64,000 nt of DNA from Alphaproteobacteria bacterium (lineage in GTDB: Bacteria > Pseudomonadota > Alphaproteobacteria > Rs-D84). The stretch covers positions 65,897 to 129,896 of the forward strand of contig JAGBXO010000003.1 of assembly GCA_017629245.1 (NCBI GenBank). The letters run 5' to 3'. Under the pieces are notes generated by a model that was not told the DNA's origin, did no database searches, and saw only the letters and a program-made list of their open reading frames with translations. Below are positions 525-64,000 of the stretch, in pieces (position 1 is the first letter of the stretch; every line of letters begins with the position of its first letter). Made by a program: the position numbers and the translations under genes.

Positions 525-3500
525 ATGGCAGTTATCCAGAAACTTAGAAAATCTTTTGGTAAAAGTTTTTTGCAAACTCCGCTTCCTGATTTAGTTGAAA
601 TTCAATATAATTCCTACAAAGACTTCTTGCAGGCAGATGTTGAACCACAATCCCGCAAAAATATGGGATTGCAAAATGTATTCTCGTCTATGTTCCCTAT
701 CAAAGACTATGCCGGCATTGCCGACCTGGAATTTGTGGAATATACATTGGACAAACCTGTCTATAACGTAAAAGAATGCATGTTGCGCAACATGACATAT
801 TCCAGCAAGTTGAAACTGAAGCTGAGATTGATTTTATGGGATGTCGCAGAAGATGGCAAAAAGACACTGCGTGACATCAAAGAACAAGAAATATTTATGG
901 GCGAAGTGCCGTTAATGACTGAACGCGGCAGCTTTATCGCATCGGGTGTTGAACGCGTTATCGTATCCCAGATGCACCGTGCCCAGGGCGTTGTGTTTGC
1001 AACAACCAAAGAAGCCAAGGTTGCAGGCAATCCAATCACATACACTGCACGTATTATCCCAGAACATGGAGCCTGGATTGATTTCGAAGAATCCAAGGGC
1101 ATAATTTATGTTCGTATCGATCGCCGTCGCAAAGTTCCTGCAACGGTTTTGTTGCGTTGCCTGCCATCTGCCGATGACGAAAAGAAATGGATTGCGGATC
1201 CACGCAAACCTTCTATCAGCGGTATGTCAGATTCTGAAATATTGTCCACCTTCTATAATCGTATAGGTTTGAAATTTGATGGTAAAATGTGGACTGGCGC
1301 AACATCTGACTTCAACGGTTTGGATAAATATCGTCTGAATTATGATTTGTATGCCACCAAAGGTAAAGAAGTCATCGCGTCCAAGGGCGATCGTCTGAAT
1401 GCAAAACGCATGAAGAAGCTGCTGGATGCCAAGACATTTGCTGTCCTGCCAGAATCTTTGATTGGAGAATATCTGTTTGATCCAGTTATGTCTGGTGACG
1501 AAGTTGTATTCCCAGCAGGTACAGAAATCACCGAAGAAGTTTTGAACGATTTGGATAAAATGAACATCAAAGAAATCAGTCTGATTTCTATTGATAATGC
1601 TACAATCAGCGCGCATATGCGCAACACATTGTTGGCAGATAAAACAACAAATCGCGAAGAAGCCTTGATTGAAGTTTATAACATCATCCGTCCAGGTGAA
1701 CGTCCAACACTGGAGGCCGCAATCAATCTGTTTATGCGCCAGGGCTTTGAACCCGCATACTATGATTTGTCGGCGGTTGGTCGTTTCAAGATGAACAAGC
1801 GTTTAAAGATTGATTCTGGCAAAAAACCAGAAGATGAACGTCTGTTGACCAAATCTGATTTCTTGGCGGTATTGAAAACATTAACAAATATTATTGACCG
1901 CAAAGACAATGTTGATGATATTGATAACCTGTCAAATCGTCGCGTCCGTACAGTTGGCGAATTGTTAGAACAGAATTTCCGCACAGGTATGGTTCGCATT
2001 GAACGTTTGGTTCGCGAAGCACTGTCTTCACCAAACATTGCAAATATGCAACCCCAGGATGTAATCAATGTAAAACCATTGATGTCATTGGTATCTGAAT
2101 TCTTGGGAACATCTCAGTTGTCTCAGTTTATGGATGCATATAATCCTTTGTCTGAATTGGAACATAAGCGTCGTATTTCTGCTTTGGGACCTGGTGGACT
2201 GAACCGTGAACGTGCCGGCATTGATGTCCGCGACGTTCATCCAACACACTATGGTCGTCTGTGTCCAATTCACACCCCAGAAGGTGCGAACATTGGTCTG
2301 ATTAACCACTTGTCATCATATGCACGTGTAAATCCATATGGTTTTATCGAAACACCATATTACGTTGTTGAAAATGGTCGTGTAACAGACAAAATGGTTT
2401 ACCTGACAGCCGACGAAGAATTGGGACATAAAATTGCCCAGGGTAATACCCCAACAACCAAAGACGGTGCATTGGCCGAAGATATCGTAACGGCGCGTGT
2501 TGATGGCGAATTTACCATGGTTGCCAAAGACGAAGTTGATTTAATCGACGTTGAACCACGTCAGGTGGTGTCTATTGCAACAGGTTTGATCCCATTCGTT
2601 GAAAACGACGACGCGAACCGTGCATTGATGGGGTCTAACATGCAGCGTCAGGCCGTTCCATTATTGCGTGTCCAGGCACCATTGGTCGGTACCGGTATTG
2701 AACGCGAAGTGGCGCGTGATTCACGCACGGGTAAGGTTGCAAAACACAGTGGTATTGTTGAATCTGTTGATGCAAACCGTATCGTTGTAAAATGTATGAA
2801 CAGCCGCAATGTTGTAACAGGTGTAGATATTTACAATCTGGAAAAATTTGAACGTTCCAACAGTGAAACAATCATTCACCAGAAACCTTTGGTCAAGGTT
2901 GGTGATCGTATTTCTGCGGGCGACATCATTGCCGACGGTTCATCTATGAACTATGGTGAATTGGCGTTGGGTCGCAATGTATTGGTTGCATTTATGCCAT
3001 GGCGTGGATACAACTATGAAGACTCTATTGTTATCTCTGAACGTATTTCCCGTGACGATGTATTTACATCTGTAAAAATCGTTGAAAAGGAATTCAAGGT
3101 TCGTGATACTCAGTTGGGGCCAGAATCTTTGACTCGCGACATTCCAAATGTTGGTGAAGAAGCCTTAAAGAATCTGGACGAATCCGGTATTATCTATGTT
3201 GGCGCACGTGTAAAGCAGGGCGACATCTTGGTTGGCCGTGTTACACCAAAATCTGAAACATTATTGACTCCAGAAGAAGCGTTATTGCGCAACATCTTTG
3301 GTGAAAAGGCATTAAATGTTAAGGATACATCACTGCGCGTTGGGCCAAACGAAGAAGGTACAGTTATCGGTGTAAACGTTCTGACCCGTCATGGTGTCAA
3401 GAAAGACGAACGTACCCAGATGATTGAGCTGCAGAAAATCGAAAAAATTAACAAAGACCGCGAAGAAGAAATCGCCATTATTGAAAAAGGCTTTGCAGAC

Positions 3501-56079: not shown

Positions 56080-56125
56080 CTGGTGCCGGTTGTCGGACTT
56101 GAGCCAACGACCTACTGATTACAAA
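56080..56125 (-). other. tRNA-Thr(UGU)-like 3'-half fragment (anticodon loop through CCA) plus the 17 bp att core; no 5' half
   Basis: The reverse complement TTTGTAA-TCAGT-AGGTC-GTTGG-CTCAAGT-CCGAC-AACCGGC-A-CCA has an anticodon loop (TGT), a 3' anticodon stem, a variable loop, a T-arm and an acceptor 3' strand. The expected 5' partners (ACTGA, GCCGGTT) are absent upstream. Confidence 0.65.
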
Positions 56126-56226
56126 CCGCCCAAACGAGTGTTGAATAACGTTTGTCAACGTTGAATTTTGCTTAGTATTCTGGGCTTTACAGCGGATTTT
56201 AAATTTATTATACTTAAATAAAAATC

Positions 56227-56279
56227 GGTAGCAAAAACTAAAATTTCATACCTGCGGTAGCAAATACGTAGCAAAAAAA
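56227..56279. promoter_or_regulatory. Three GTAGCAAA direct repeats upstream of the integrase gene
   Basis: GGTAGCAAAAA is at 56227, GGTAGCAAATA at 56256 and GTAGCAAAAAAA at 56268, about 30-80 bp before the integrase ATG. Confidence 0.45.
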
Positions 56280-56304
56280 TGGATGAAAAAGGCATCTGAA
56301 AAAT

Positions 56305-57474
56305 ATGAAATCGAACCGCTTTAATTTTACTGAACGTGCACTGGCCGCATTGCCAGTTCCGACGACTGGTTCGGCGGTCTATTATGATGCCGGCTCAATG
56401 GACGGCCTGTGTGTTATTGTAACCTATGGCGGGACCAAAACATACTATGCCTATATGAAGTTCCAGGGTGTTCCCCGTCGCGTTAAAATTGCCCGTGTCG
56501 GTCAGATGAAGTTGATAGAGGCACGAATGAAAGCGCATACACTAAAAGAACGTTCCCTGCGTGGAGAAGACCCGTCGGCCGAACGGCGTGATGCATTGAA
56601 AGACATGACCCTGCGCCAGTACTATGAAAACATTTATGTGCCACAACATTCAATGGTTCATAAAAAGCCTGCGACCGTATACGATGACAACGGACTGTTC
56701 CGTCGCAATATGAAGCCGTTTCATAATCGCCAGATGCGAACGATATCTCAACTGGAGGTATCCCAACTGCACGGTTCCTTGAAACGTAAATGCGGCCTGT
56801 ACAGCGCCAACCGAACCCTGGGCCTGTTGCGCCACATGTATAACAAGGCGTACGAACTGGGCTATCCACGTCGCCTGGAAAATCCGGCACAATATGTCAA
56901 AGCTTTTAAAGAAAAAAGTCGCGACCGCTTTATGTCTCGGGCCGAGCTGGCACGCTTTTTCGAAGCACTTCAATATGCCGAACCCCGTTTCCGTCACTAC
57001 ATCTTGCTGTCATTGTTCCTGGGGCAACGGCGCAGTAGTATCTTGGCATTGCGCTGGGGCGATATAGATTTTGAAAACGATATTGTGCGATTTGTTGATA
57101 CCAAGAATGGCGATACTGTTAACACACCCATGACGGACCAGGCCCGTGAAATACTGATACAAATGTACAGAACAGCTGGGGATAATCCGTGGCTGTTCCC
57201 CAGCAGCACCAGCAAAAGTGGCCATATCGAAGAGCCTAAACGTGCGTGGAATGCACTGCTGAAACGTGCGAATATTGAAAACCTTCGCATCCATGACCTG
57301 CGCCGCACAATGGGCAGTTACCAGGCCATCACCGGATCCAGCCTGCACATCATCGGCCAGTCGCTGGGGCATCGGTCCACCGCCGCCACCCAAATCTATG
57401 CCAGATTATCCTGTGATCCGGTCCGTGAATCCATGCAACGCGCCACCAATTCAATGCTGGGATTGTTGGGATAA
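56305..57474 (+). CDS. int: Tyrosine site-specific integrase (P4-type)
   Basis: The N-terminal arm-binding-like region is MKSNRFNFTERALAALP...YYD. The C-terminal catalytic residues are R...HDLRRT...GHRSTAATQIYARL (R-H-R-Y). Confidence 0.85.
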   Translation: MKSNRFNFTERALAALPVPTTGSAVYYDAGSMDGLCVIVTYGGTKTYYAYMKFQGVPRRVKIARVGQMKLIEARMKAHTLKERSLRGEDPSAERRDALKDMTLRQYYENIYVPQHSMVHKKPATVYDDNGLFRRNMKPFHNRQMRTISQLEVSQLHGSLKRKCGLYSANRTLGLLRHMYNKAYELGYPRRLENPAQYVKAFKEKSRDRFMSRAELARFFEALQYAEPRFRHYILLSLFLGQRRSSILALRWGDIDFENDIVRFVDTKNGDTVNTPMTDQAREILIQMYRTAGDNPWLFPSSTSKSGHIEEPKRAWNALLKRANIENLRIHDLRRTMGSYQAITGSSLHIIGQSLGHRSTAATQIYARLSCDPVRESMQRATNSMLGLLG

Positions 57475-57591
57475 ATGAATATCGATCAATAGTTTGTGGT
57501 TGTGTTTGTTGAATAAGGTTTTTTAATTCCTTGAAAAATGTGCTTTTATGATTGATTATAGGCTTATAATTACTAAAGGTTTTATAACGGC

Positions 57592-59106
57592 ATGAAAGAT
57601 ACGTCTAATATTTTTAAATTACCACCGAAAGAACTGGAAACAAAAAAATCTTCTTTAGATGTGTTGTGGGATGATACCGCACCAGAAATAGTAGATTTTG
57701 CAAGAAAATTACAAGGATTATTACAAAGTGTTGATACCCCATATGTCATCGGTTTGGACGGTGGATATGGTACAGGAAAAACGCATTTTGCAACCAGGTT
57801 TGCGGCACAAATGCATGAACAAATCAAAACAATATATTTTAGTGCCTGGGAAAAGGACTATGAAAAAGAGCTGATAACGGTTTTTCTAGAACAAATCGCC
57901 AATTTAATAAAGACGGACAAGAAATATATTGAAAGCAGCCAAATAAAAAACATAAAGTCTCTTCTAAAATCACTATGGGTTGCTATCGAAAGCATATCCG
58001 TAAATAGTCCTATTACAAAATTCCCCATAAGTATGACATTCAATGTTGAGCATTTTAGAAGACAATTAAATAAGTTAACTATTAAGGAAGATATGTTACA
58101 AAATGCTAAACGTGAATTAGCTAATTATATAAAGTCTTTGCCGCATGAAAAAATGGTTCTTATAGTGGATGACTTGGATAGATGTAGACCTGATACAGCG
58201 GTCAAGATCTTAGAAACGGTAAAACATTTTTTTGATATTGATGGCCTGATTGTTGTGATGCCTATAAATCAATCTAGGTTGCGACAATATATAGATGCTT
58301 TTTATGGTATTGGCGGCACGGCGGAACAAAAAGGTGTTGTTGCAGAAGATTATTTGCAAAAATTCTTTAATGACATAATAGATATTCCGAATTTAAATTA
58401 CGAGAAAATATGTGCAGACCGTATTACAGAAGAAGAGTTTAGAAGTAACTTGGTTTATGAGGGTGATAGTTACAATAATATTCAAGAATTGCGGAAATGG
58501 ATTGCCGAGTATGCAAAAAAATCGCATTTTTCCTACCGGGAAACGGTCGAACTAATAAACAGAGCAAAATTGTTTTGTAATACGTATCATGAACCTATAA
58601 GATGCAGACTGTTGGCTTATCAGTTGTGTAATCGTTTACATAAAGAAAAAAACAAAATGCGGCACGAATATAACGATATAGATTATGGTGAAGATAATGT
58701 TTATAAGGATTGTCCACAAAATACAAAGAAAAAATTATTTTCCCATCACCCTGCCTATCAGCCCCTTAGTTCAATAAACAACAGATTTGGCCACTTGGCT
58801 CGCATTAGATTACGTGCTTATGTGTCTACAGCTGGACAGATTCATGACACATATGCAGATGTGTACAAGCAGATAAAGCATTTAATTAAATTGGTGTCAG
58901 ATATTTCTGAAACGGATTTTAGGAACAAGACAGCATATAACAATTATATAAAACCAGAACTAGAGGTAGTAGTGCCCGCTCTGAAAACGCTATATAAAGA
59001 ACTGAGAGAATTTCAAAGAAAACATGGTTCTGATGATTCTGATCTAGATAGAGCAAAAGATTATGAGCTTAAGGTTTATAACCCTCATTTGTTAGGGGAC
59101 AAATAG
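57592..59106 (+). CDS. KAP-family P-loop NTPase
   Basis: VIGLDGGYGTGKTHFATRFA is the KAP-type Walker A. LIVDDLDRCRPD is the Walker B/DRC motif typical of KAP NTPases. Confidence 0.65.
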   Translation: MKDTSNIFKLPPKELETKKSSLDVLWDDTAPEIVDFARKLQGLLQSVDTPYVIGLDGGYGTGKTHFATRFAAQMHEQIKTIYFSAWEKDYEKELITVFLEQIANLIKTDKKYIESSQIKNIKSLLKSLWVAIESISVNSPITKFPISMTFNVEHFRRQLNKLTIKEDMLQNAKRELANYIKSLPHEKMVLIVDDLDRCRPDTAVKILETVKHFFDIDGLIVVMPINQSRLRQYIDAFYGIGGTAEQKGVVAEDYLQKFFNDIIDIPNLNYEKICADRITEEEFRSNLVYEGDSYNNIQELRKWIAEYAKKSHFSYRETVELINRAKLFCNTYHEPIRCRLLAYQLCNRLHKEKNKMRHEYNDIDYGEDNVYKDCPQNTKKKLFSHHPAYQPLSSINNRFGHLARIRLRAYVSTAGQIHDTYADVYKQIKHLIKLVSDISETDFRNKTAYNNYIKPELEVVVPALKTLYKELREFQRKHGSDDSDLDRAKDYELKVYNPHLLGDK

Positions 59107-59241
59107 CATTTAATTATACATCCCCCACAACATTTCAAACCGATTGGTGTATTCTTGCGCTGGGAGGGTCAGGAAGATACAGTTTTTACTGTTATATTTA
59201 TGGGCATAACAAAATTTGGCTAATAAAGACAAAAGAAATAG

Positions 59242-59658
59242 CTAGTAATTCTGTTTTTTATAATATTGAAACAGTAGTACCAATATAGCATAGCATAAAA
59301 AACAAAAAAGTAGACCACCAGACAGTATCAATGCATTTTCTAATCCATCTAGTACAGCTAGAATAATTGTTAGAAATGCAACAGCCAGTAAAGCAGTACA
59401 ATAGGATTTTATGTGGTTGTGTATTGATGATTTTATTTGGTTATAAGCATATATAAAAAAACTACATGCATGCTTGATAAGCTTAGGGATGTTTCTCAAA
59501 AAAATAGCAATTCCATTAAAAAGAAGCACAAAAACAAAAACTGCTATTGGGATTTTGATAAATACAGTAAGTAGAATATCAAGCATTGGTTTGCTCTTTA
59601 TTATTGCTGCACAAGACGACTTTTTTGATGTCGCTTGTGCAATTACTTGCACACACAT
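59242..59658 (-). CDS. Small hypothetical membrane protein (possibly shorter, starting at MLDILL)
   Basis: The ORF has 3-4 hydrophobic helices and lies between the KAP NTPase gene and hsdR. Confidence 0.3.
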   Translation of the reverse strand: MCVQVIAQATSKKSSCAAIIKSKPMLDILLTVFIKIPIAVFVFVLLFNGIAIFLRNIPKLIKHACSFFIYAYNQIKSSIHNHIKSYCTALLAVAFLTIILAVLDGLENALILSGGLLFCFLCYAILVLLFQYYKKQNY

Positions 59659-59718
59659 ATTCTACACCATTTATTGAAAAAATCAATTGATAAACAAAGC
59701 CCCATTTTGGGGCGTTGT

Positions 59719-62700
59719 TTAATCGATTTCCATCAGGTTATCAGTCCATAATTCACACTGGGTCATAACAGTCTGAATAGCATCATCTTCGCCCTCTGGT
59801 GGATATTTATGCTTGCGTAAAAGCCGCTTTATTGTCATTCGCATTGCAGCACGAGCATCATCTTTGCGTTGCCAGTCTACAGTCTTATTTTTCTGCAGCG
59901 CCTCGGTCAGTTCCTTTGTGATGGCAATAAGCTCATCGTTTTCATAGAAGTCTTTAACGGCTCGTGGTTTTGTCAGAGCATCATAGAATGCCAATTCCTC
60001 AGGACTCAAACCAAGATCCTCACCTTCCTGCTGTGCCGTTGTAATTTGTTTAGCCAGGTTCATCAATTCAGCGATAACTTCTTCATTGGTTAGCATGCCA
60101 TTCAGGTACTTATTCATAACTGTTTGAATGATTTCGCTAAATTTTTCTGATTTTACAATATTGGTTCTGCGATATACCTTAATTTGCTCCGCAATCAGTT
60201 TTTTCAGCAATTCAACGGCGATATTGCGTTCCTTCATCTTGGAAATTTCATCCAAGAATTTTGGGTCAAATAAAGAGAAACCGTCTGACACATTCGTAGA
60301 GAAAAGGTTTATCACCCCATCGCTTTTAATGCTCTGTTTTAGCATTTCATTGATTTTCTCATTCAATTCCTTTAATGACATTTTCTTGCCACCAGAACCA
60401 GCAAACATCATGCGCTGAATCAATACACGTATTGTTTCAAAGAATGCTGCTTCAAAGCGCATGTCTTTTTGGACCATAGAAGAACATAATGATAGAGCTT
60501 GGTTCAACATTAAAGCTTCCTTGCGGAATGACTCCTTGGTGTCATTGCGTGACGGTTCCAGCAAGAAATTCAAACCACCACTAATTGTTGTGGCTTTTTC
60601 AAGCGGAGTGCCTGTAAAGAACAACTGATAATCGTAACCATGCATCAGTGAACGGCAAACATCTAATTTTTCCAAAAACTTTGGATATGCTACTTTACCA
60701 ATGTCGGGGTCGCCAAATTTCTTCTTATCACGGGTTGTATAGTCGTTCATCGCCTGTTTAAGAGCAGCCGCAATACCGATATAGTCGACCACCAAACCAC
60801 CTTCCTTGTCCTTAAATACGCGATTAACACGTGCGATAGCCTGCATCAGATTATGGCCTGACATTGGTTTATATACATACATGGTCGCCAATGACGGAAC
60901 ATCAAATCCAGTTAGCCACATGTCAACCACAATAGCGATTTTTAACGGACTGTTATTATCCTTGAACTTGGTGGCCAGTTCTTCACGATGAGCCTTGTTG
61001 CCGATGATTTTGCGCCATTCTTCAGGATCCTTGTTTTCATCTGTCATGACAACTGCGACTTTATCAGTCCAAGTCGGACGTAATTCCATGATACGATTAT
61101 ATATTTTCATAGCAATTGGACGAGAATAAGCCACAATCATAGCCTTGCCAGTGAGCAAATCAGCACGGTTATTTTCATAGTGAGCAAGAATATCTGTTAC
61201 AAGGGAATCAATAGTGTTGTCATTACCCAAAACGGCTTCCATTTGACCAATTTGTTTCTTGCTCTGTTCCAAGACTGCAGGATCAACGGCATCAGCTAAG
61301 GCGTCATACTGTTCGTCAATTTCTTTGATGACTTTTTCGTCTAATTTTAGTTTCACAACCCGACTTTCATAATATACAGGACGAGTCGCACCATCTTCAA
61401 CAGCCTGTGTCATATCATAAACATCAATATAATTACCAAAGACCTCACGTGTGTTACGATCCTTGATAGAAACAGGTGTGCCAGTAAAGCCAATATAGGT
61501 AGCATTAGGTAGGTTGTTACGGATAATACGGGCTGCCCCTACAACTCGCTTTGTGATATCATTACCATCGGCATCCTTGGTCATTTTGATTTTTTCAGTT
61601 AAGCCATACTGACCACGATGTGCTTCATCAGCCATTACAATAATATTGGTCCGTTCTGACAGTGGCTCATCTGATTCCTCGAACTTTTGCATGGTTGTGA
61701 AGATAATACCATTGGCAACACGGCCGTCTAACCAATCTTTTAAGCCTTTTCTGCTAGTGGCTTGGACAGGTTCCTGGCGCAAGAAGTCCTTACACTTGGC
61801 GAATTGTCCGTATAATTGATCGTCCAGGTCGTTTCGATCAGTAATAACGACAACAGTTGGGCTTGTCAGGGCAGATTGCAATAACTTGGCATAAAATACC
61901 ATTGAAAGTGATTTGCCACTTCCCTGGGTGTGCCAAAAGACCCCGGCCTTACCATCATTGCCGACAGCGTTTTCTGTCGATGTGATCGCCTTGCGAACAG
62001 CAAAATACTGATGGTATCCAGCAAGGATCTTAACATCTTGCTTACTTTCCTTAGAGAAACAAATAAAATTCTTTAAGATATCCAGAAAACGTGTTTGCTC
62101 AAACATGCCGATAAAGAATGTATCAAACTGAGCAGCCTTTGTATTTTCGTAAGAGCCATCAGTAGTCTTCCACTCCATGTAACGGTCTTCGCCAGCGGTG
62201 ATAGTACCTGCCTTAGAGGTCAATTGGTCACTCATGACACAGAAAGCATTATAAATGAACATTGATGGAATTTCCTGCATATAATTACGCAGCTGACGAT
62301 ATGCCTCGGAAACCTCCGTTTCTTCTCTAGAGGGTGATTTTAACTCCATTAAGACAACCGGAATACCATTAAGGAACACTATCAGATCAGGTCTTTTTTC
62401 GCTATTTTCAATAAATGTCCACTGATTAGCGATAATGAAAGAGTTGTTTCCTAGATCAGAGTAGTCAACAATGCGAACCAATTCAGTCCTGGATTCGCCA
62501 TTTTCAACGAATGGAACTTCAATACCATTCTGAAGATAATTAGTAAATGCCTCGTTGCGCTGGATCAGGTCGCCATTATCAAAGTATTTGATCTTGTTAA
62601 AAGCCCCCTCAAGAATCTTTTCAGAGGTAAACGGATTGAGTCTCTTAAGTTGGGATTTAAGAATATCTTCATACAATGGACTGGTGTAGTCACGGACAAC

Positions 62701-62790
62701 ATCAGGACCATAAACATGCTGATATCCCAGTTGTTGGAACAGTTCTATAATAGATACTTCATAACTATTTTCGTTAAATATAGTGCTCAT
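59719..62790 (-). CDS. hsdR: Type I restriction enzyme R subunit
   Basis: The 1023 aa product has the Walker A motif FWHTQGSGKS and the DEAH box IVMADEAHRGQ. The N-terminal nuclease and C-terminal helical regions are typical of HsdR. Confidence 0.9.
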   Translation of the reverse strand: MSTIFNENSYEVSIIELFQQLGYQHVYGPDVVRDYTSPLYEDILKSQLKRLNPFTSEKILEGAFNKIKYFDNGDLIQRNEAFTNYLQNGIEVPFVENGESRTELVRIVDYSDLGNNSFIIANQWTFIENSEKRPDLIVFLNGIPVVLMELKSPSREETEVSEAYRQLRNYMQEIPSMFIYNAFCVMSDQLTSKAGTITAGEDRYMEWKTTDGSYENTKAAQFDTFFIGMFEQTRFLDILKNFICFSKESKQDVKILAGYHQYFAVRKAITSTENAVGNDGKAGVFWHTQGSGKSLSMVFYAKLLQSALTSPTVVVITDRNDLDDQLYGQFAKCKDFLRQEPVQATSRKGLKDWLDGRVANGIIFTTMQKFEESDEPLSERTNIIVMADEAHRGQYGLTEKIKMTKDADGNDITKRVVGAARIIRNNLPNATYIGFTGTPVSIKDRNTREVFGNYIDVYDMTQAVEDGATRPVYYESRVVKLKLDEKVIKEIDEQYDALADAVDPAVLEQSKKQIGQMEAVLGNDNTIDSLVTDILAHYENNRADLLTGKAMIVAYSRPIAMKIYNRIMELRPTWTDKVAVVMTDENKDPEEWRKIIGNKAHREELATKFKDNNSPLKIAIVVDMWLTGFDVPSLATMYVYKPMSGHNLMQAIARVNRVFKDKEGGLVVDYIGIAAALKQAMNDYTTRDKKKFGDPDIGKVAYPKFLEKLDVCRSLMHGYDYQLFFTGTPLEKATTISGGLNFLLEPSRNDTKESFRKEALMLNQALSLCSSMVQKDMRFEAAFFETIRVLIQRMMFAGSGGKKMSLKELNEKINEMLKQSIKSDGVINLFSTNVSDGFSLFDPKFLDEISKMKERNIAVELLKKLIAEQIKVYRRTNIVKSEKFSEIIQTVMNKYLNGMLTNEEVIAELMNLAKQITTAQQEGEDLGLSPEELAFYDALTKPRAVKDFYENDELIAITKELTEALQKNKTVDWQRKDDARAAMRMTIKRLLRKHKYPPEGEDDAIQTVMTQCELWTDNLMEID

Positions 62791-62903
62791 CTGTTTTCTC
62801 GTTTTTACTTTTTTTTCTTAAAATGTTTGACAAGCTATTTTTATTATGTCATCATAATATCAGAGGTTCGGCTGAGGGGTTGCTAATGGTGGCTCCAACT
62901 GCA

Positions 62904-63788
62904 TTACCTCTTTTTTCTTGTCTGATACGGGCTCTTATGCAGCTTTATGCTCTCTAATACTTTTCGCTGTCCCTTTATGGTCTTATAGCCTTTATATTGC
63001 AGGCGTGCAATTTTGTTTTCATACCGTTCTTGTATTTCTGAACGTGCGGGCGCATGCATACCCTGAGATCTTCTGTACCCTGTATTTATGATATAAATAC
63101 AAACATCTGCTACCTGTATCAAATAATTTATATCTGATTCTATAAATAAAGGCTCAGGAACAATCCAATTGGCGTGTTGTTGTCCTGAAATAGTTTTCGA
63201 AAAATAGTTCGTTAGCTGTCTTTTAAACTTTTTATCGTATTCTTTTTCACATTGATCCATTATCAATAGACCGTCTTCTCGCTGTCTTGCCAAGAAATTT
63301 GCGAAAATTTCCATCAAAAACACATGGTCTTTACGTAGATAATCATCAAATTCAAAATTTAGAGGTTTCTTAACACCTTTTTCGATTAGGCATGCAAAGA
63401 CTTTCGCCTTGTATTTTTTTAGCAGACCAAGAATAGTGTCTGCCATCTCTAATGATGCTTGACCAAATGCGGTAAAGTCTTGTCTGGTGGGACTTCTTTT
63501 TTCTAGGCATGCGGTTAAAAAACGCCTACACCCCTTTTGGCGATCTTCTTTGGAGAGCTTTTTATCCTGAGCGGCCCATTTAAAGCGCTCTTTTTCCAAC
63601 AGTTTAGATCCTTTAATTTCTGTTTTAAATTCTGATAACCTACAGCCAAAAATTTTTTCTTCTGAACATTGAATATCTTTTAGAAAGTTGAAAACATTAA
63701 CAGAAGCAATAGAGATCCCACCACGAACTTCGTAATTCATGTTTTTATGGTCATGTCCACTTTCATCCATAAACAATAAATAACTCAT
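62904..63788 (-). CDS. DUF3800-like protein inserted between hsdS and hsdR
   Basis: The N-terminus is MSYLLFMDESGHD, the (Y/F)xDESG start characteristic of DUF3800. The product is 294 aa. Confidence 0.45.
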   Translation of the reverse strand: MSYLLFMDESGHDHKNMNYEVRGGISIASVNVFNFLKDIQCSEEKIFGCRLSEFKTEIKGSKLLEKERFKWAAQDKKLSKEDRQKGCRRFLTACLEKRSPTRQDFTAFGQASLEMADTILGLLKKYKAKVFACLIEKGVKKPLNFEFDDYLRKDHVFLMEIFANFLARQREDGLLIMDQCEKEYDKKFKRQLTNYFSKTISGQQHANWIVPEPLFIESDINYLIQVADVCIYIINTGYRRSQGMHAPARSEIQERYENKIARLQYKGYKTIKGQRKVLESIKLHKSPYQTRKKR

Positions 63789-63853
63789 TTTTGCTCCTTT
63801 TTAGGCCTATTATATTTGATGATGCAGCTAAATCAAAGAAAATAACCCCATTT

Positions 63854-64000
63854 TTACTCCGTTTCTTCGCTAAACAATAATTTATCTAAGTAACTTGGGT
63901 CAGAAATATCGACCTTTGACACGTCAATTTCGCCACTCATCAGCTTAGGCAATAACGCATCACGGATCGCCGCCAGGTGTGATGATTCTACCGTGTTTCT
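63854..64000 (-). CDS. hsdS: Type I R-M specificity subunit, C-terminal end (gene continues beyond the window)
   Basis: The minus-strand translation ends ...AAIRDALLPKLMSGEIDVSKV...*. LLPKLMSGEI is the conserved HsdS C-terminal repeat motif. Confidence 0.55.
   Translation of the reverse strand, partial: RNTVESSHLAAIRDALLPKLMSGEIDVSKVDISDPSYLDKLLFSEETE

What the first reader, a model, noticed from the sequence alone, without database searches (positions are those of the whole stretch)
56080..64000. Integrase-associated defence island: KAP NTPase plus a type I R-M locus with a DUF3800-like gene inserted between hsdS and hsdR
From the tRNA-Thr fragment rightwards the order is int, a KAP-family P-loop NTPase, a small membrane ORF, and on the opposite strand hsdS(partial)-DUF3800-like-hsdR. 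An extra gene wedged between type I specificity and restriction genes is a known hotspot for anti-phage or abortive-infection cargo, such as PrrC/RloC-type insertions. A DUF3800-like gene in this position, next to a KAP NTPase, may be an accessory defence module that is not yet characterised. The island extends past the window edge, where hsdM and an intact tRNA are presumably located.
Basis: partly seen in the sequence, partly recalled or inferred. Interest (0 to 1): 0.7.

Follow-up and report, generated by a model that had tools for sequence, protein, structure and literature searches.

The report
Restriction-locus nuclease gene with antisense RNA

Summary
The window contains, in order, a tRNA-Thr 3' fragment, int, a KAP NTPase (PADLOC PDC-S20-like), a membrane ORF, and on the minus strand hsdS(3' end)-DUF3800-hsdR. 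Contigs identical to the window show hsdM, a PIN_12 gene, a Xer-like recombinase and inverted hsdS copies just past the edge, so this is an invertible (phase-variable) type I R-M locus.

New findings:
- **Protein:** the 294-aa product has an RNase HII/PIWI-like fold with conserved D-E...D...D residues.
- **RNA partner:** a ~55-nt structured RNA gene lies on the opposite strand (62862-62916). It has its own sigma-70-type promoter and a hairpin plus U-tract that overlaps the DUF3800 stop codon. No Rfam 15 family matches it.
- **Linkage:** a covariance model finds one copy in 79 of 80 homologous loci, always in this geometry.
- **Context:** about 12-14% of cassettes lie exactly between hsdS and hsdR, and two lie between res and mod of type III-like systems. 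The rest are solitary.
- **KAP/int:** this is a separate module.

Best reading: an RNA-gated, toxin-antitoxin-like nuclease recruited as an R-M back-up at the position PrrC occupies. The function is inferred, not shown. I rate it a new variant of a known kind.

The parts
56081..56127 (-). 3' fragment of a tRNA-Thr(UGU) gene, from the anticodon loop to the CCA end; presumed att remnant beside int
   Evidence: Sequence read. Weak partial Rfam tRNA hit covering the T-arm and acceptor strand, 14.6 bits. No intact tRNA called by ARAGORN. The 32-mer occurs once in the window, with 0 expected by chance.
56305..57474 (+). Tyrosine integrase of the tRNA-targeting island type (389 aa)
   Evidence: Phage_integrase 2.4e-22 and Arm-DNA-bind_3 3.4e-08.
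57592..59106 (+). KAP-family P-loop NTPase (504 aa), resembling PADLOC defence candidate PDC-S20; a module separate from the R-M locus
   Evidence: PF07693 1.7e-30. PDC-S20 5.8e-52, PifA 9.4e-16, QatA 2.7e-10. Absent from the sister locus L003, which carries the same R-M locus.
59242..59658 (-). Small hydrophobic ORF (138 aa; gene callers use an internal start giving 114 aa)
   Evidence: ORF list and translation show three or four hydrophobic stretches. Called as a 114-aa gene in L001. No Pfam or PADLOC hit.
59719..62790 (-). hsdR, the type I restriction subunit (1023 aa, full length)
   Evidence: HSDR_N, SWI2_SNF2, ResIII, T1R_D3-like and T1RH-like_C domains. REase_I 1.9e-300. TIGR00348 4.6e-176.
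62827..62855 (+). Sigma-70-type promoter of the small RNA: TTGACA, 17 nt, (TG)TCATCAT; the -10 ends 6 nt before the RNA's first stem
   Evidence: Promoter scan, 10 of 12 matches with a TG extension. The same geometry is conserved in 45 of 65 homologous loci by a strict test, against at most 2 in shuffles. The TTG is at least 90% conserved in alignment A4.
62862..62916 (+). About 55-nt structured small RNA gene antisense to DUF3800. Three nested helices end in a U-tract. Its last 13 nt overlap the DUF3800 stop codon and final codons.
   Evidence: Covariance model R1 hit at 62861-62916 (+), 59.7 bits; this sequence was in the seed. MFE -20.5 kcal/mol in the consensus fold. Consensus structure of 16 pairs, 10 with compensatory changes, 93.5% of cells paired, 0 of 500 shuffles reach it. 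G-U:A-C ratio of 82:10 favours this strand. No Rfam family matches.
62904..63788 (-). DUF3800 protein gene (294 aa): RNase HII/PIWI-like fold with conserved D8-E9, D178, Q225xxD228
63809..63836 (-). Promoter-like site (TTGATT, 16 nt, TATAAT) in the 65-nt hsdS-DUF3800 spacer, followed by an AAAGGAG ribosome-binding site
   Evidence: Promoter scan, 10 of 12 matches; sequence. Consensus match only.
63854..64000 (-). 3' end (48 codons plus stop) of hsdS; it lies within the 111-nt inverted repeat used for hsdS inversion
   Evidence: Translation. 100% identity to the end of the 417-aa Methylase_S gene of L001. Inverted repeat L001 9814-9924 against 3199-3309, 99% complementary.

Best explanation
**Anatomy (shown).** The gene between hsdS and hsdR is one half of a conserved two-part cassette of about 0.95 kb.
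- Part one is a DUF3800 protein with an RNase HII/PIWI-like fold and a conserved D-E...D...D set of residues.
- Part two is a ~55-nt structured small RNA transcribed towards it from the opposite strand. The RNA has its own sigma-70-type promoter. Its basal stem plus U-tract abuts or overlaps the DUF3800 stop codon.
- The cassette occurs as a single copy in many bacterial phyla. It has repeatedly come to lie inside restriction-modification operons, always co-directional with them and always next to the restriction (or mod) gene.
- In this Candidatus Enterousia genome it sits in an invertible type I R-M locus: hsdM-PIN-hsdS, a Xer-like recombinase, inverted hsdS copies, then DUF3800 and hsdR.
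- A separable int-KAP NTPase module lies alongside.

**Mechanism (inferred).** DUF3800 is a nuclease effector kept harmless by the small RNA, which acts like an antitoxin. The RNA could do this by binding the protein, by pairing with the 3' end of its mRNA, or both. When infection shuts off host transcription or disables restriction, the short-lived RNA would decay and the nuclease would act. This would give the R-M system an abortive-infection-type back-up, as PrrC does for EcoprrI.

Because hsdR has no detectable promoter of its own, it must be read through the RNA gene. The RNA may therefore also modulate hsdR expression.
For: **Protein**
- Pfam DUF3800.
- D8, E9, D178, Q225 and D228 are invariant in 30 homologues of 45-87% identity.
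- The confident AF2 model (pLDDT 93.2) matches RNase HII, RNase H2A, Piwi and Argonaute best. This agrees with PMC7736814 and PMC10910872.

**RNA**
- A ~55-nt block just past the stop codon stays about 90% identical between loci whose proteins are only 45-50% identical.
- The consensus fold has compensatory changes in 10 of 16 pairs. Covariation score is 0.421 against 0.238 in shuffles, and 0 of 500 shuffles reach it.
- G-U:A-C is 82:10 on the antisense strand.
- The -35/-10 pair sits at a fixed distance in 45-55 of 65 loci, against at most 2-4 in shuffles. A U-tract follows in 65 of 65.

**Linkage**
- Model R1 finds exactly one copy in 79 of 80 sources (1.27 Mb). Each is antisense and 3' of DUF3800, including 14 loci not in the seed. 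The one locus without a hit is cut by its contig end.
- In the reverse test, 57-59 of 77 metagenome loci found by the RNA pattern alone carry this DUF3800 clade in the same geometry, and one carries another DUF3800 subfamily.
- The asymmetry fits an antitoxin. The protein is never seen without the RNA (79 of 79). RNA-only loci exist (about 17 of 77), and two of them still show C-terminal DUF3800 remnants.
- Distant plasmid homologues next to repC or ParB keep a miniature of the RNA at the same place and strand.

**R-M link**
- HsdR is the commonest downstream neighbour (REase_I in 9 of 67) and HsdS the commonest upstream neighbour (5 of 65).
- This recurs in the metagenome set, 9-11 of 80.
- Two loci have ResIII helicase-DUF3800-RNA-MTase.
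- R-M-embedded copies are scattered over the protein tree.
- Homology between an R-M copy and a non-R-M copy runs exactly from the ATG to the RNA's 5' end.

**Other DUF3800 proteins in defence settings:** retron type VII (PMC7736814), Cas12a2/Cas12a3 (PMC10910872, PMC13594972) and the Cas13 CASK operon (10.64898/2026.08.25.746378).
Against: - No experiment or transcript data exist. The promoter, the terminator and the RNA itself are comparative predictions.
- Toxicity, nuclease activity and any phage phenotype are untested.
- The protein matches no PADLOC or NCBIfam model.
- More than 80% of cassettes lie outside R-M loci, many between housekeeping genes such as SelB-MutS, PEP carboxylase and LepA. 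The R-M link could therefore be opportunistic.
- The protein tree roughly follows taxonomy, which is less typical of fast-moving defence genes.
- Type I toxins are small peptides and type III antitoxins are repeat arrays on the same strand, so the cassette fits neither class.
- Some RNA-only loci may have a partner outside the 1.5 kb examined. Only the 25 most frequent of 41 Pfam families were listed, so a weak DUF3800 hit could be hidden.
- Whether hsdR is truly co-transcribed is inferred only from the absence of a consensus promoter.
Confidence: 0.45

Rival explanations
1. The protein and RNA form a ribonucleoprotein in which the RNA is a required cofactor or scaffold rather than an inhibitor. 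It might position a nucleic-acid substrate for the RNase H/PIWI-like active site or license cleavage. The cassette would then be a self-contained RNP nuclease, whether for defence or for nucleic-acid housekeeping.
For: Unpaired nucleotides of the RNA (UCG after P1, GCAUUG before the 3' arm, GGUGGC) are more conserved than a pure antisense role or a terminator would need. The basal stem and these loops survive even in the miniature plasmid version. Eleven unrelated structured RNAs accompany other DUF3800 genes, on either strand and either side (PMC5737381), which suggests protein-RNA partnership rather than antisense pairing. PIWI and Argonaute domains are among the best structural matches. RNA variants track protein clades.
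Against: The RNA has no variable single-stranded segment that could act as a guide; the variable apical part covaries as a helix. RNA-only loci exist while protein-only loci do not, which fits an antidote better than a mere cofactor. No structure or binding data exist.
Confidence: 0.25
2. The cassette is an autonomous selfish or addiction module, or a stand-alone abortive-infection gene, with no functional tie to restriction. It accumulates in the hsdS-hsdR gap only because that gap is a permissive cargo hotspot in defence islands.
For: Most copies are solitary. The same gap carries other cargo elsewhere: SLFN_AlbA_2, CHAT, PIN_12 and a second DUF3800 fragment. Plasmid homologues lie beside repC or ParB, where addiction modules usually sit. 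A contig end shows an hsdS-3 nt-hsdR allele without the cassette.
Against: Position and polarity are stereotyped: always co-directional, always the last element before hsdR or mod, in type I and in type III-like operons, across about 20 loci from two independent samples. Orphan RNAs are retained right before hsdR in three loci. Both points hint at an interaction with expression of the restriction gene.
Confidence: 0.2
3. The conserved element is only a transcription terminator or attenuator hairpin and DUF3800 is an ordinary RNase H-type housekeeping enzyme. There is no separate RNA gene.
For: The element is a stem plus U-tract placed at a gene end. Many neighbours are housekeeping genes.
Against: The U-tract is on the wrong strand to terminate DUF3800. 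A -35/-10 pair is conserved at a fixed distance on the antisense strand. G-U pairs fit only the antisense strand. Loop nucleotides are conserved across phyla. The gene was found in only 341 places among one genome each of 185,579 species, far too rare for a housekeeping function.
Confidence: 0.05
4. The cassette is a minimal mobile element whose DEDD (RNase H-fold) protein is a transposase or recombinase guided by its end-encoded RNA, as in IS110 bridge-RNA or IS605 elements.
Against: Each of the 80 genome loci kept comes from a different genome record. No terminal repeats or target duplications were found. No relatives occur in 2.9 million viral contigs. The RNA has no programmable loops. The protein tree largely follows taxonomy.
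Confidence: 0.05

Closest known systems
PrrC anticodon nuclease in the EcoprrI (prr) type I R-M locus, and RloC (from established literature: Levitz 1990; Penner 1995; Kaufmann 2000)
   Same: An extra nuclease gene lies between hsdS and hsdR of a type I operon and is co-directional with it. The proposed logic is the same: a latent suicide or back-up nuclease coupled to the R-M system.
   Different: There is no homology. PrrC has an ABC-ATPase-like N-domain and an anticodon-nuclease C-domain, whereas this protein is a single RNase H-fold DUF3800 domain. PrrC is masked by the R-M proteins themselves, whereas here a dedicated small RNA gene accompanies the nuclease. The cassette also lives outside R-M loci.
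DUF3800-associated RNA motifs DUF3800-I to -XI (Weinberg et al. 2017, PMC5737381; Rfam RF02969, RF02968 among others)
   Same: A covariation-supported structured RNA lies next to a DUF3800 gene and is often followed by an intrinsic terminator. Function is unknown.
   Different: No Rfam 15 model matches this RNA, even at E up to 10 on short stretches. Here strand, promoter, terminator and a fixed tail-to-tail geometry with the ORF can be defined, and the link to R-M operons is new. I could not read the 2017 supplement, so identity with a motif not deposited in Rfam is not excluded.
Retron type VII (RT fused to or associated with DUF3800; Mestre et al. 2020, PMC7736814)
   Same: A DUF3800/RNase H2-like effector is paired with a structured non-coding nucleic acid in a predicted defence system.
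   Different: There is no reverse transcriptase here. The retron proteins lack the Q of QxxD and have DEED, whereas this clade keeps Q225xxD228 and DEDD. The retron DUF3800 models, if present in PADLOC, do not hit this protein.
CRISPR-associated DUF3800 proteins (TPR-DUF3800 with Cas12a2/Cas12a3; Csx32 in Cas13 CASK operons)
   Same: The same domain occurs as an accessory gene inside an immune operon, and its role is unresolved (PMC10910872, PMC13594972, 10.64898/2026.08.25.746378).
   Different: Those proteins carry TPR fusions or kinase partners and sit with CRISPR effectors. This one is a stand-alone domain with its own RNA, inside R-M.
Toxin-antitoxin systems with RNA antitoxins: type I with convergent 3' overlap (fst/RNAII, bsrG/SR4, txpA/RatA) and type III (ToxIN)
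   Same: A small, separately transcribed RNA is tightly linked to a potentially harmful protein gene. The tail-to-tail overlap resembles the 3'-overlapping type I loci. RNA-only remnants exist but protein-only ones do not.
   Different: The protein is a 294-aa enzyme, not a small membrane peptide. The RNA is not a tandem repeat array processed by the toxin, and it lies on the opposite strand. Its strong primary-sequence conservation is not expected for a pure cis-antisense RNA.
Phase-variable (inverting hsdS) type I R-M systems, such as Mycoplasma pulmonis hsd and S. pneumoniae SpnD39III/ivr with CreX
   Same: A tyrosine recombinase lies between inverted hsdS copies with 111-nt and 81-nt inverted repeats, and alternative arrangements are seen in natural samples.
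   Different: The invertible segment here (5.4 kb) carries hsdM, a PIN_12 gene and the recombinase itself. The fixed part carries DUF3800, the RNA and hsdR.

Membership tests
DUF3800 (Pfam PF12686) | Match to the family HMM above the gathering score | tested here: met
   45.0 bits against a cut-off of 21, E 2.3e-11, covering profile positions 1-147 of 149. All 120 listed homologues carry PF12686.
DUF3800 (Pfam PF12686) | N-terminal DE motif and C-terminal QxxD motif | tested here: met
   D8-E9 (MDESGHDH) and Q225-V-A-D228 are invariant in alignment A1. Motif definition taken from PMC7736814.
Type 2 RNase H-like fold (RNase HII/H2A) | RNase H fold with adjacent D-E on strand 1 plus two further carboxylates | tested here: inconclusive
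Type 2 RNase H-like fold (RNase HII/H2A) | Cleavage of RNA in RNA/DNA hybrids | not testable with these tools
   Needs biochemistry.
Type I restriction-modification system | hsdR, hsdM and hsdS genes together | tested here: met
   hsdR is complete in the window. The hsdS 3' end is in the window. Full hsdS and hsdM (N6_Mtase 4.1e-108) lie in L001 and L004, which are 100% identical to the window over 11,097 nt. hsdM itself lies outside the window.
Phase-variable (inverting) type I R-M | Site-specific recombinase, inverted repeats in hsdS copies, and alternative orientations observed | tested here: met
   Xer-like recombinase of 332 aa. Inverted repeats of 111 nt (99%) and 81 nt (95%). A 5.4-kb segment is inverted between L001 and L002/L003 at 100% and 98% identity. 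Seen in metagenome assemblies, so the rate of switching is unknown.
PrrC/RloC R-M-linked anticodon nucleases | Gene placed between hsdS and hsdR | tested here: met
   Order hsdS-DUF3800-hsdR on one strand.
PrrC/RloC R-M-linked anticodon nucleases | ABC-ATPase-like N-domain plus anticodon-nuclease C-domain | tested here: not met
   The only domain is DUF3800. No ATPase or PrrC-type hit in Pfam, NCBIfam or PADLOC. It is not a member; only the position and the proposed logic are alike.
KAP NTPase / PADLOC candidate PDC-S20 (neighbouring gene) | KAP P-loop domain and match to PDC-S20 models | tested here: met
   PF07693 at 106.8 bits against a cut-off of 20. PDC-S20 at 175.7 bits, E 5.8e-52. PDC systems are candidates, not proven defences.
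DUF3800-associated RNA motifs in Rfam | Match to a deposited covariance model | tested here: not met
   No DUF3800 motif hit in the window, L001, L035 or 15 further loci (E up to 1 on the larger searches, up to 10 on the two short stretches).
DUF3800-associated RNA motifs (as a kind) | Covariation-supported structured RNA consistently adjacent to DUF3800 genes | tested here: met
   (79 of 80 loci). Reverse search.
Type I toxin-antitoxin (cis-antisense RNA) | Antisense RNA gene overlapping the toxin transcript | tested here: inconclusive
   A predicted convergent RNA overlaps the last 13 nt of the ORF in the window and would be fully complementary to any read-through transcript. There are no transcript data.
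Type I toxin-antitoxin (cis-antisense RNA) | Small hydrophobic toxin peptide | tested here: not met
   The protein is a 294-aa soluble enzyme-like protein.
Type III toxin-antitoxin (ToxIN-like) | Tandem-repeat RNA upstream of, and co-transcribed with, an endoribonuclease toxin | tested here: not met
   A single-copy RNA lies on the opposite strand, downstream of the ORF.
tRNA-integrated genomic island | Integrase next to a tRNA-derived att site, with an intact tRNA or direct repeat at the far end | tested here: inconclusive
   Integrase and tRNA-Thr 3' fragment are present. No intact tRNA lies within 9.8 kb past the edge, and there is no repeat of the fragment. Homology to the int-less sister locus ends at about 59623, which suggests a 3.5-kb int-KAP module.

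The most novel reading that the evidence does not exclude
DUF3800 proteins may be a general class of RNase HII/PIWI-like effectors that are held or licensed by a dedicated structured nucleic acid. Here that partner would be a promoter-to-terminator defined ~55-nt RNA acting as a protein-binding antidote. If so, the cassette is a previously unrecognised kind of RNA-gated abortive-infection module that guards restriction-modification systems. The eleven orphan DUF3800 RNA motifs, retron type VII and the CRISPR-associated DUF3800 proteins would be variations on the same principle.
Probability: 0.25. Interest if true: 0.85.

Novelty: new variant of a known kind. Interest (0 to 1): 0.66.

Why it matters
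DUF3800 is an unexplained domain that keeps appearing in immune contexts: retron type VII, Cas12a2/a3 loci and Cas13 CASK operons. Since 2017 it has also been known to travel with eleven different structured RNAs whose function nobody could guess.

This locus exposes what may be the simplest form of the partnership. It is one protein and one ~55-nt RNA with definable promoter, terminator and fold. The RNA is present beside the gene in 79 of 80 homologous loci (the 80th is cut by a contig end), and the cassette is repeatedly built into type I and type III-like restriction operons at the position PrrC occupies.

That turns an open question into a small, tractable experiment. Cultured carriers exist (Dyella flagellata, Haloferula sargassicola, Phaeobacter plasmids). 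Confirmation would add an RNA-controlled nuclease to the short list of effectors that back up restriction systems.

There is also a practical point for annotation. Several database proteins of this family carry false C-terminal tails that are translations of the RNA gene.

Tried and rejected
- **Known defence models for the DUF3800 protein:** no PADLOC or NCBIfam hit.
- **Rfam for the RNA:** four searches covering the window, L001, L035 and 15 other loci found no relevant family.
- **Weinberg 2017 supplement:** not held, so I could not compare consensus drawings.
- **Sequence search of the PDB with the family profile:** nothing.
- **Relatives in IMG/VR viral contigs:** none, so this is not a phage gene.
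- **att repeat or intact tRNA for the island:** none in the window, in 56-60 kb, or in the extension. I could not walk further, because only window proteins may be looked up.
- **Mini-ORF reading of the conserved block (SD-like AAGGAGG plus ATG):** rejected. The ATG is not conserved (AAUGCC, AACGCC or AAAGCC) and the helices covary.
- **Sense-strand RNA or a DUF3800 terminator:** rejected on the G-U/A-C asymmetry, the lack of a U-tract on that strand and the weaker fold.
- **Trans pairing of the RNA with the 5' region of its own DUF3800 mRNA:** no better than with other loci's 5' regions (mean -37.0 against -36.1 kcal/mol, p = 0.2).
- **KAP-DUF3800 linkage:** rejected.
- **IS-like mobile element:** considered and thought unlikely (single copy, no terminal repeats).
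- **Literature on follow-up work on DUF3800 RNAs, or on RNase H-like genes in R-M loci:** nothing relevant found.

Full report
**1. Checking the observation**

- At 56081-56127 on the minus strand lies the 3' part of a tRNA-Thr(UGU) gene, from the anticodon loop (UUUGUAA) through the variable loop and T-arm to the acceptor strand and CCA.
- ARAGORN finds no whole tRNA there. Rfam's tRNA model gives a weak partial hit on the T-arm and acceptor strand (14.6 bits). The 32-mer is unique in the window.
- To the right lie a tyrosine integrase (56305-57474) and a KAP-family NTPase (57592-59106). The NTPase scores 1.7e-30 on PF07693 and 5.8e-52 on PADLOC candidate PDC-S20.
- Next comes a 138-aa hydrophobic ORF (59242-59658, minus strand).
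- On the minus strand follow a complete hsdR (59719-62790) and a 294-aa DUF3800 gene (62904-63788; 45 bits against a cut-off of 21).
- The last 48 codons of an hsdS gene occupy 63854-64000.

**2. What lies beyond the window edge**

The exact DUF3800 protein is encoded on 12 contigs that were read (8 places shown).
- L001 and L004 are 100% identical to the window over 11,097 nt.
- The closest named genome is a Candidatus Enterousia MAG, an uncultured gut alphaproteobacterium.
- Past the edge these contigs carry the rest of hsdS, hsdM (N6_Mtase 4.1e-108), a 321-aa PIN_12 gene translationally coupled between hsdM and hsdS, a 332-aa Xer-like tyrosine recombinase and a second, inverted hsdS.
- A 5.4-kb segment holding the recombinase, hsdM, PIN and parts of hsdS is inverted between L001 and L002/L003 at 98-100% identity. 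It is bounded by inverted repeats of 111 and 81 nt inside the hsdS genes.
- The locus is therefore an invertible, presumably phase-variable, type I system. That kind of system is already known.
- No tRNA lies within 9.8 kb past the edge, and the tRNA fragment has no repeat.
- In the sister MAG (L003) the R-M locus with DUF3800 is conserved at 97.7% DNA identity, with an identical DUF3800 protein. Homology stops about 96 nt after hsdR (window ~59623), and a PLD-family gene replaces the membrane ORF, KAP and int.
- The int-KAP module is thus a separate unit of about 3.5 kb and not a partner of DUF3800.

**3. The protein**
- Homologues are numerous: 701 at E <= 1e-3, all carrying PF12686.
- Thirty of them, at 45-87% identity, share invariant D8-E9-S-G-H-D-H, E57, D178, D185 and Q225xxD228.
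- An AlphaFold2 model is confident (pLDDT 93.2, pTM 0.91).
- The adjacent D-E on the first strand, a carboxylate at the end of strand 4 and one on the following helix reproduce the type 2 RNase H arrangement. That arrangement is known from Tk-RNase HII (D7, E8, D105, D135); I cite this from established knowledge and did not superpose the structures here.
- This agrees with earlier modelling of other DUF3800 proteins (PMC7736814, PMC10910872).
- No solved structure is related by sequence. No PADLOC or NCBIfam model matches.

**4. The unexpected partner RNA**

I compared the flanks of 80 homologous genome loci.
- Upstream sequences are unrelated.
- The ~55 nt just past the stop codon are about 90% identical between phyla whose proteins are only 45-50% identical.
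- The block folds into three nested helices. Ten of the 16 pairs show compensatory changes and 93.5% of cells are paired. The covariation score is 0.421 against 0.238 in shuffles, reached by 0 of 500. Sliding the partners by 1-3 columns collapses pairing to 44-57%.
- Wobble pairs decide the strand. On the strand antisense to DUF3800 there are 82 G-U against 10 A-C, and that strand folds much better.
- On the same strand the element is preceded by CTTGAC[T/A], 16-18 nt, then GATACT/GATAAT, ending 5-8 nt before the first stem. It is followed by a run of U.
- The strict promoter geometry occurs in 45 of 65 loci (at most 2 in shuffles) and the U-tract in 65 of 65.
- In the window the parts are TTGACA (62827-62832), a 17-nt spacer, TG-extended CATCAT (62850-62855), and the RNA at 62862-62916.
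- The DUF3800 stop codon (62904-62906) lies inside the 3' arm of the basal stem.
- In some relatives the stop is missing. Gene callers then translate the RNA gene's complement into a false tail (...GNAVRATISNPSAEPL).

**5. Linkage of RNA and protein**
- A covariance model built from 65 copies finds one hit in 79 of 80 sources (1.27 Mb). Each hit is antisense and just 3' of DUF3800, and 14 of the loci were not in the seed. The only locus without a hit ends 41 nt after the gene.
- No Rfam 15 family matches, although Rfam holds DUF3800-I and DUF3800-IX (PMC11701678).
- In the reverse test, a metagenome scan used only an RNA pattern. Of 77 informative loci, 57-59 carried this DUF3800 clade in the same geometry. 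One carried a different DUF3800 subfamily between hsdS and hsdR (L140; Pfam 1.1e-15).
- About 17 had no intact DUF3800 within 1.5 kb. Two of these (L097, L142) keep C-terminal DUF3800 remnants.
- So the protein was never seen without the RNA, while the RNA sometimes survives alone.
- Plasmid-borne homologues of 30-37% identity, next to repC or ParB, keep a 35-40-nt miniature at the same place and strand. It consists of the basal stem and flanking loops and scores 14-16 bits at each of three loci.
- Homology between an R-M-embedded copy and a non-R-M copy (L009 against L010) runs exactly from the ATG to the RNA's 5' end.
- There are no relatives in viral contigs.

**6. Genomic contexts**

Genome set:
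- The commonest downstream neighbour is HsdR: HSDR_N in 8 of 67 by Pfam and REase_I in 9 of 67 by PADLOC.
- The commonest upstream neighbour is HsdS, in 5 of 65.
- Counting a short contig that shows only hsdS, 10 of 80 loci are hsdS-DUF3800-RNA-hsdR.

Other findings:
- The independent metagenome set gives 9-11 of 80.
- Two loci have a ResIII helicase, DUF3800, the RNA and then a large N6/N4 methylase, which looks like a type III-like system.
- The polarity is always the same, and the cassette is always the last element before the restriction (or mod) gene. This holds even when other cargo (SLFN_AlbA_2, CHAT, PIN_12) shares the gap.
- R-M-embedded copies are scattered over the protein tree. The R-M systems themselves differ widely: the HsdR proteins match the window's HsdR with E-values from 0 down to about 1e-19.
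- The remaining neighbours are mostly unrelated and often housekeeping genes: SelB/MutS, PEP carboxylase, LepA, RuvB.
- One contig end (L002) shows hsdS, 3 nt, then an hsdR allele (94.5% identical) with no cassette. This is either a natural empty site or an assembly join between strains.

**7. How it most likely works**

Shown by comparative evidence: a conserved protein-RNA cassette, an RNase H-type fold with a conserved catalytic set, an independently promoted and terminated antisense RNA, and recurrent stereotyped placement in R-M operons.

Inferred:
- The protein is a nuclease effector and the RNA restrains it, in the manner of an antitoxin.
- The arguments for this are the asymmetry (RNA-only remnants but no protein-only loci), the plasmid copies beside replication and partition genes, the rare and patchy distribution, and the immune contexts of other DUF3800 proteins.
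- The strong conservation of unpaired nucleotides suggests direct recognition by the protein, not only antisense pairing.
- A test for co-evolving pairing with the 5' end of the mRNA was negative.
- No consensus promoter lies between DUF3800 and hsdR, whereas one lies upstream of DUF3800 (63836-63809). hsdR is therefore probably read through the RNA gene, and the RNA could also cut or dampen the hsdR message.
- By analogy with PrrC in the EcoprrI locus, the cassette would give the R-M system a back-up when restriction is blocked.
- I put this at about 0.45. An RNP or cofactor role gets about 0.25 and mere hitch-hiking in a cargo hotspot about 0.2.

**8. Comparison with the known, and novelty**
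- The protein is a member of DUF3800.
- It is not a member of the PrrC/RloC family, because it shares no domains with them. Only the position and the proposed logic are alike.
- The RNA belongs to the kind "DUF3800-associated structured RNA" (PMC5737381) but matches none of the deposited models.
- The cassette fits neither type I nor type III toxin-antitoxin definitions.
- The invertible type I system and the KAP/PDC-S20 gene are known kinds.
- My literature searches found no description of DUF3800 in R-M operons or of this RNA.
- I therefore rate it a new variant of a known kind, of fairly high interest. It offers a minimal, experimentally tractable form of a long-unexplained protein-RNA association.

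**9. Caveats**
- Everything about the RNA is comparative prediction.
- Most loci come from MAGs and metagenome contigs.
- The context statistics rest mainly on immediate neighbours.
- E-values from the home-made model are rough.

Noticed in passing
L001:3101-9935 (beyond the window edge; L001 position x corresponds to window position 73789 - x): The type I locus is an invertible hsdS shufflon. A 5.4-kb segment carrying a Xer-like recombinase, hsdM, a PIN gene and hsdS parts is inverted between contigs L001 and L002/L003. It is flanked by inverted repeats of 111 nt and 81 nt inside hsdS genes.
   Followed up: partly
L001:7137-8102 (+); also L011:6789-8018: A second embedded accessory gene, a PIN_12-domain protein (2.6e-18), overlaps the hsdM stop and the hsdS start by 8 nt each. 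This R-M operon therefore carries two nuclease-fold cargo genes.
   Followed up: partly
L002:1-330 (contig end): The hsdS stop codon is followed after 3 nt by the start of an hsdR allele (94.5% identical to the window's hsdR 5' end), with no DUF3800/RNA cassette. This is either a natural empty-site allele in a co-occurring strain or an assembly join across the hsdS repeat.
   Followed up: partly
L003:12860-14147: In the sister Enterousia MAG a PLDc_2 (phospholipase D/nuclease family) gene and a 175-aa ORF lie downstream of hsdR where the window has the membrane ORF, KAP NTPase and integrase. This flank of the R-M locus is a variable cargo site.
   Followed up: no
L020:1014-8047 and L039:6852-13912: The same DUF3800 plus antisense RNA cassette lies between a ~1000-aa ResIII helicase gene and a ~1000-aa N6/N4 DNA methylase gene (PADLOC MTase_III), that is, inside a type III-like R-M operon.
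   Followed up: partly
L139:1552-1618, L142:696-753, L164:1331-1397: Copies of the small RNA without an intact DUF3800 gene sit directly in front of hsdR genes. L142 and L097 still show the last ~15 codons of DUF3800. The RNA may be retained after the protein gene is lost.
   Followed up: partly
Proteins P0014, P0016, P0021; locus L013:10886-10942: Some database DUF3800 proteins have C-terminal tails (...GNAVRATISNPSAEPL...) that are translations of the complement of the RNA gene. In these relatives the stop codon is absent or was read through by the gene caller.
   Followed up: yes
L209:1855-2772, L210:3001-3902, L211:3001-3901 (plasmids): Distant DUF3800 homologues (30-37% identity) on alphaproteobacterial plasmids lie next to repC, ParB-like and ArdC-like genes. 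They are followed by a 35-40-nt miniature of the RNA on the antisense strand.
   Followed up: partly
L058:8764-9939, L082:7486-8553, L147:4802-5251: Other type I loci carry additional cargo between hsdS and the DUF3800 cassette: a Schlafen/AlbA_2 protein, a CHAT-domain protein and a second DUF3800 fragment.
   Followed up: no
L080:1755-3517 and L046:10886-11214: In two loci the RNA is separated from the DUF3800 stop codon, by about 1.7 kb containing a 502-aa ORF in L080 and by about 270 nt in L046. This suggests insertions into the cassette.
   Followed up: no
L033:2502-3730: Group II intron RNA domains (RF02001 at 72.7 bits, RF00029 at 44.9 bits) lie just beyond the small RNA's promoter in this locus.
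   Followed up: no
window:54328-55838: Two ORFs of 258 and 225 aa to the left of the tRNA fragment have no convincing Pfam, PADLOC or NCBIfam match. An autotransporter gene lies further left (about 53629 downward, from the annotation of L001).
   Followed up: no
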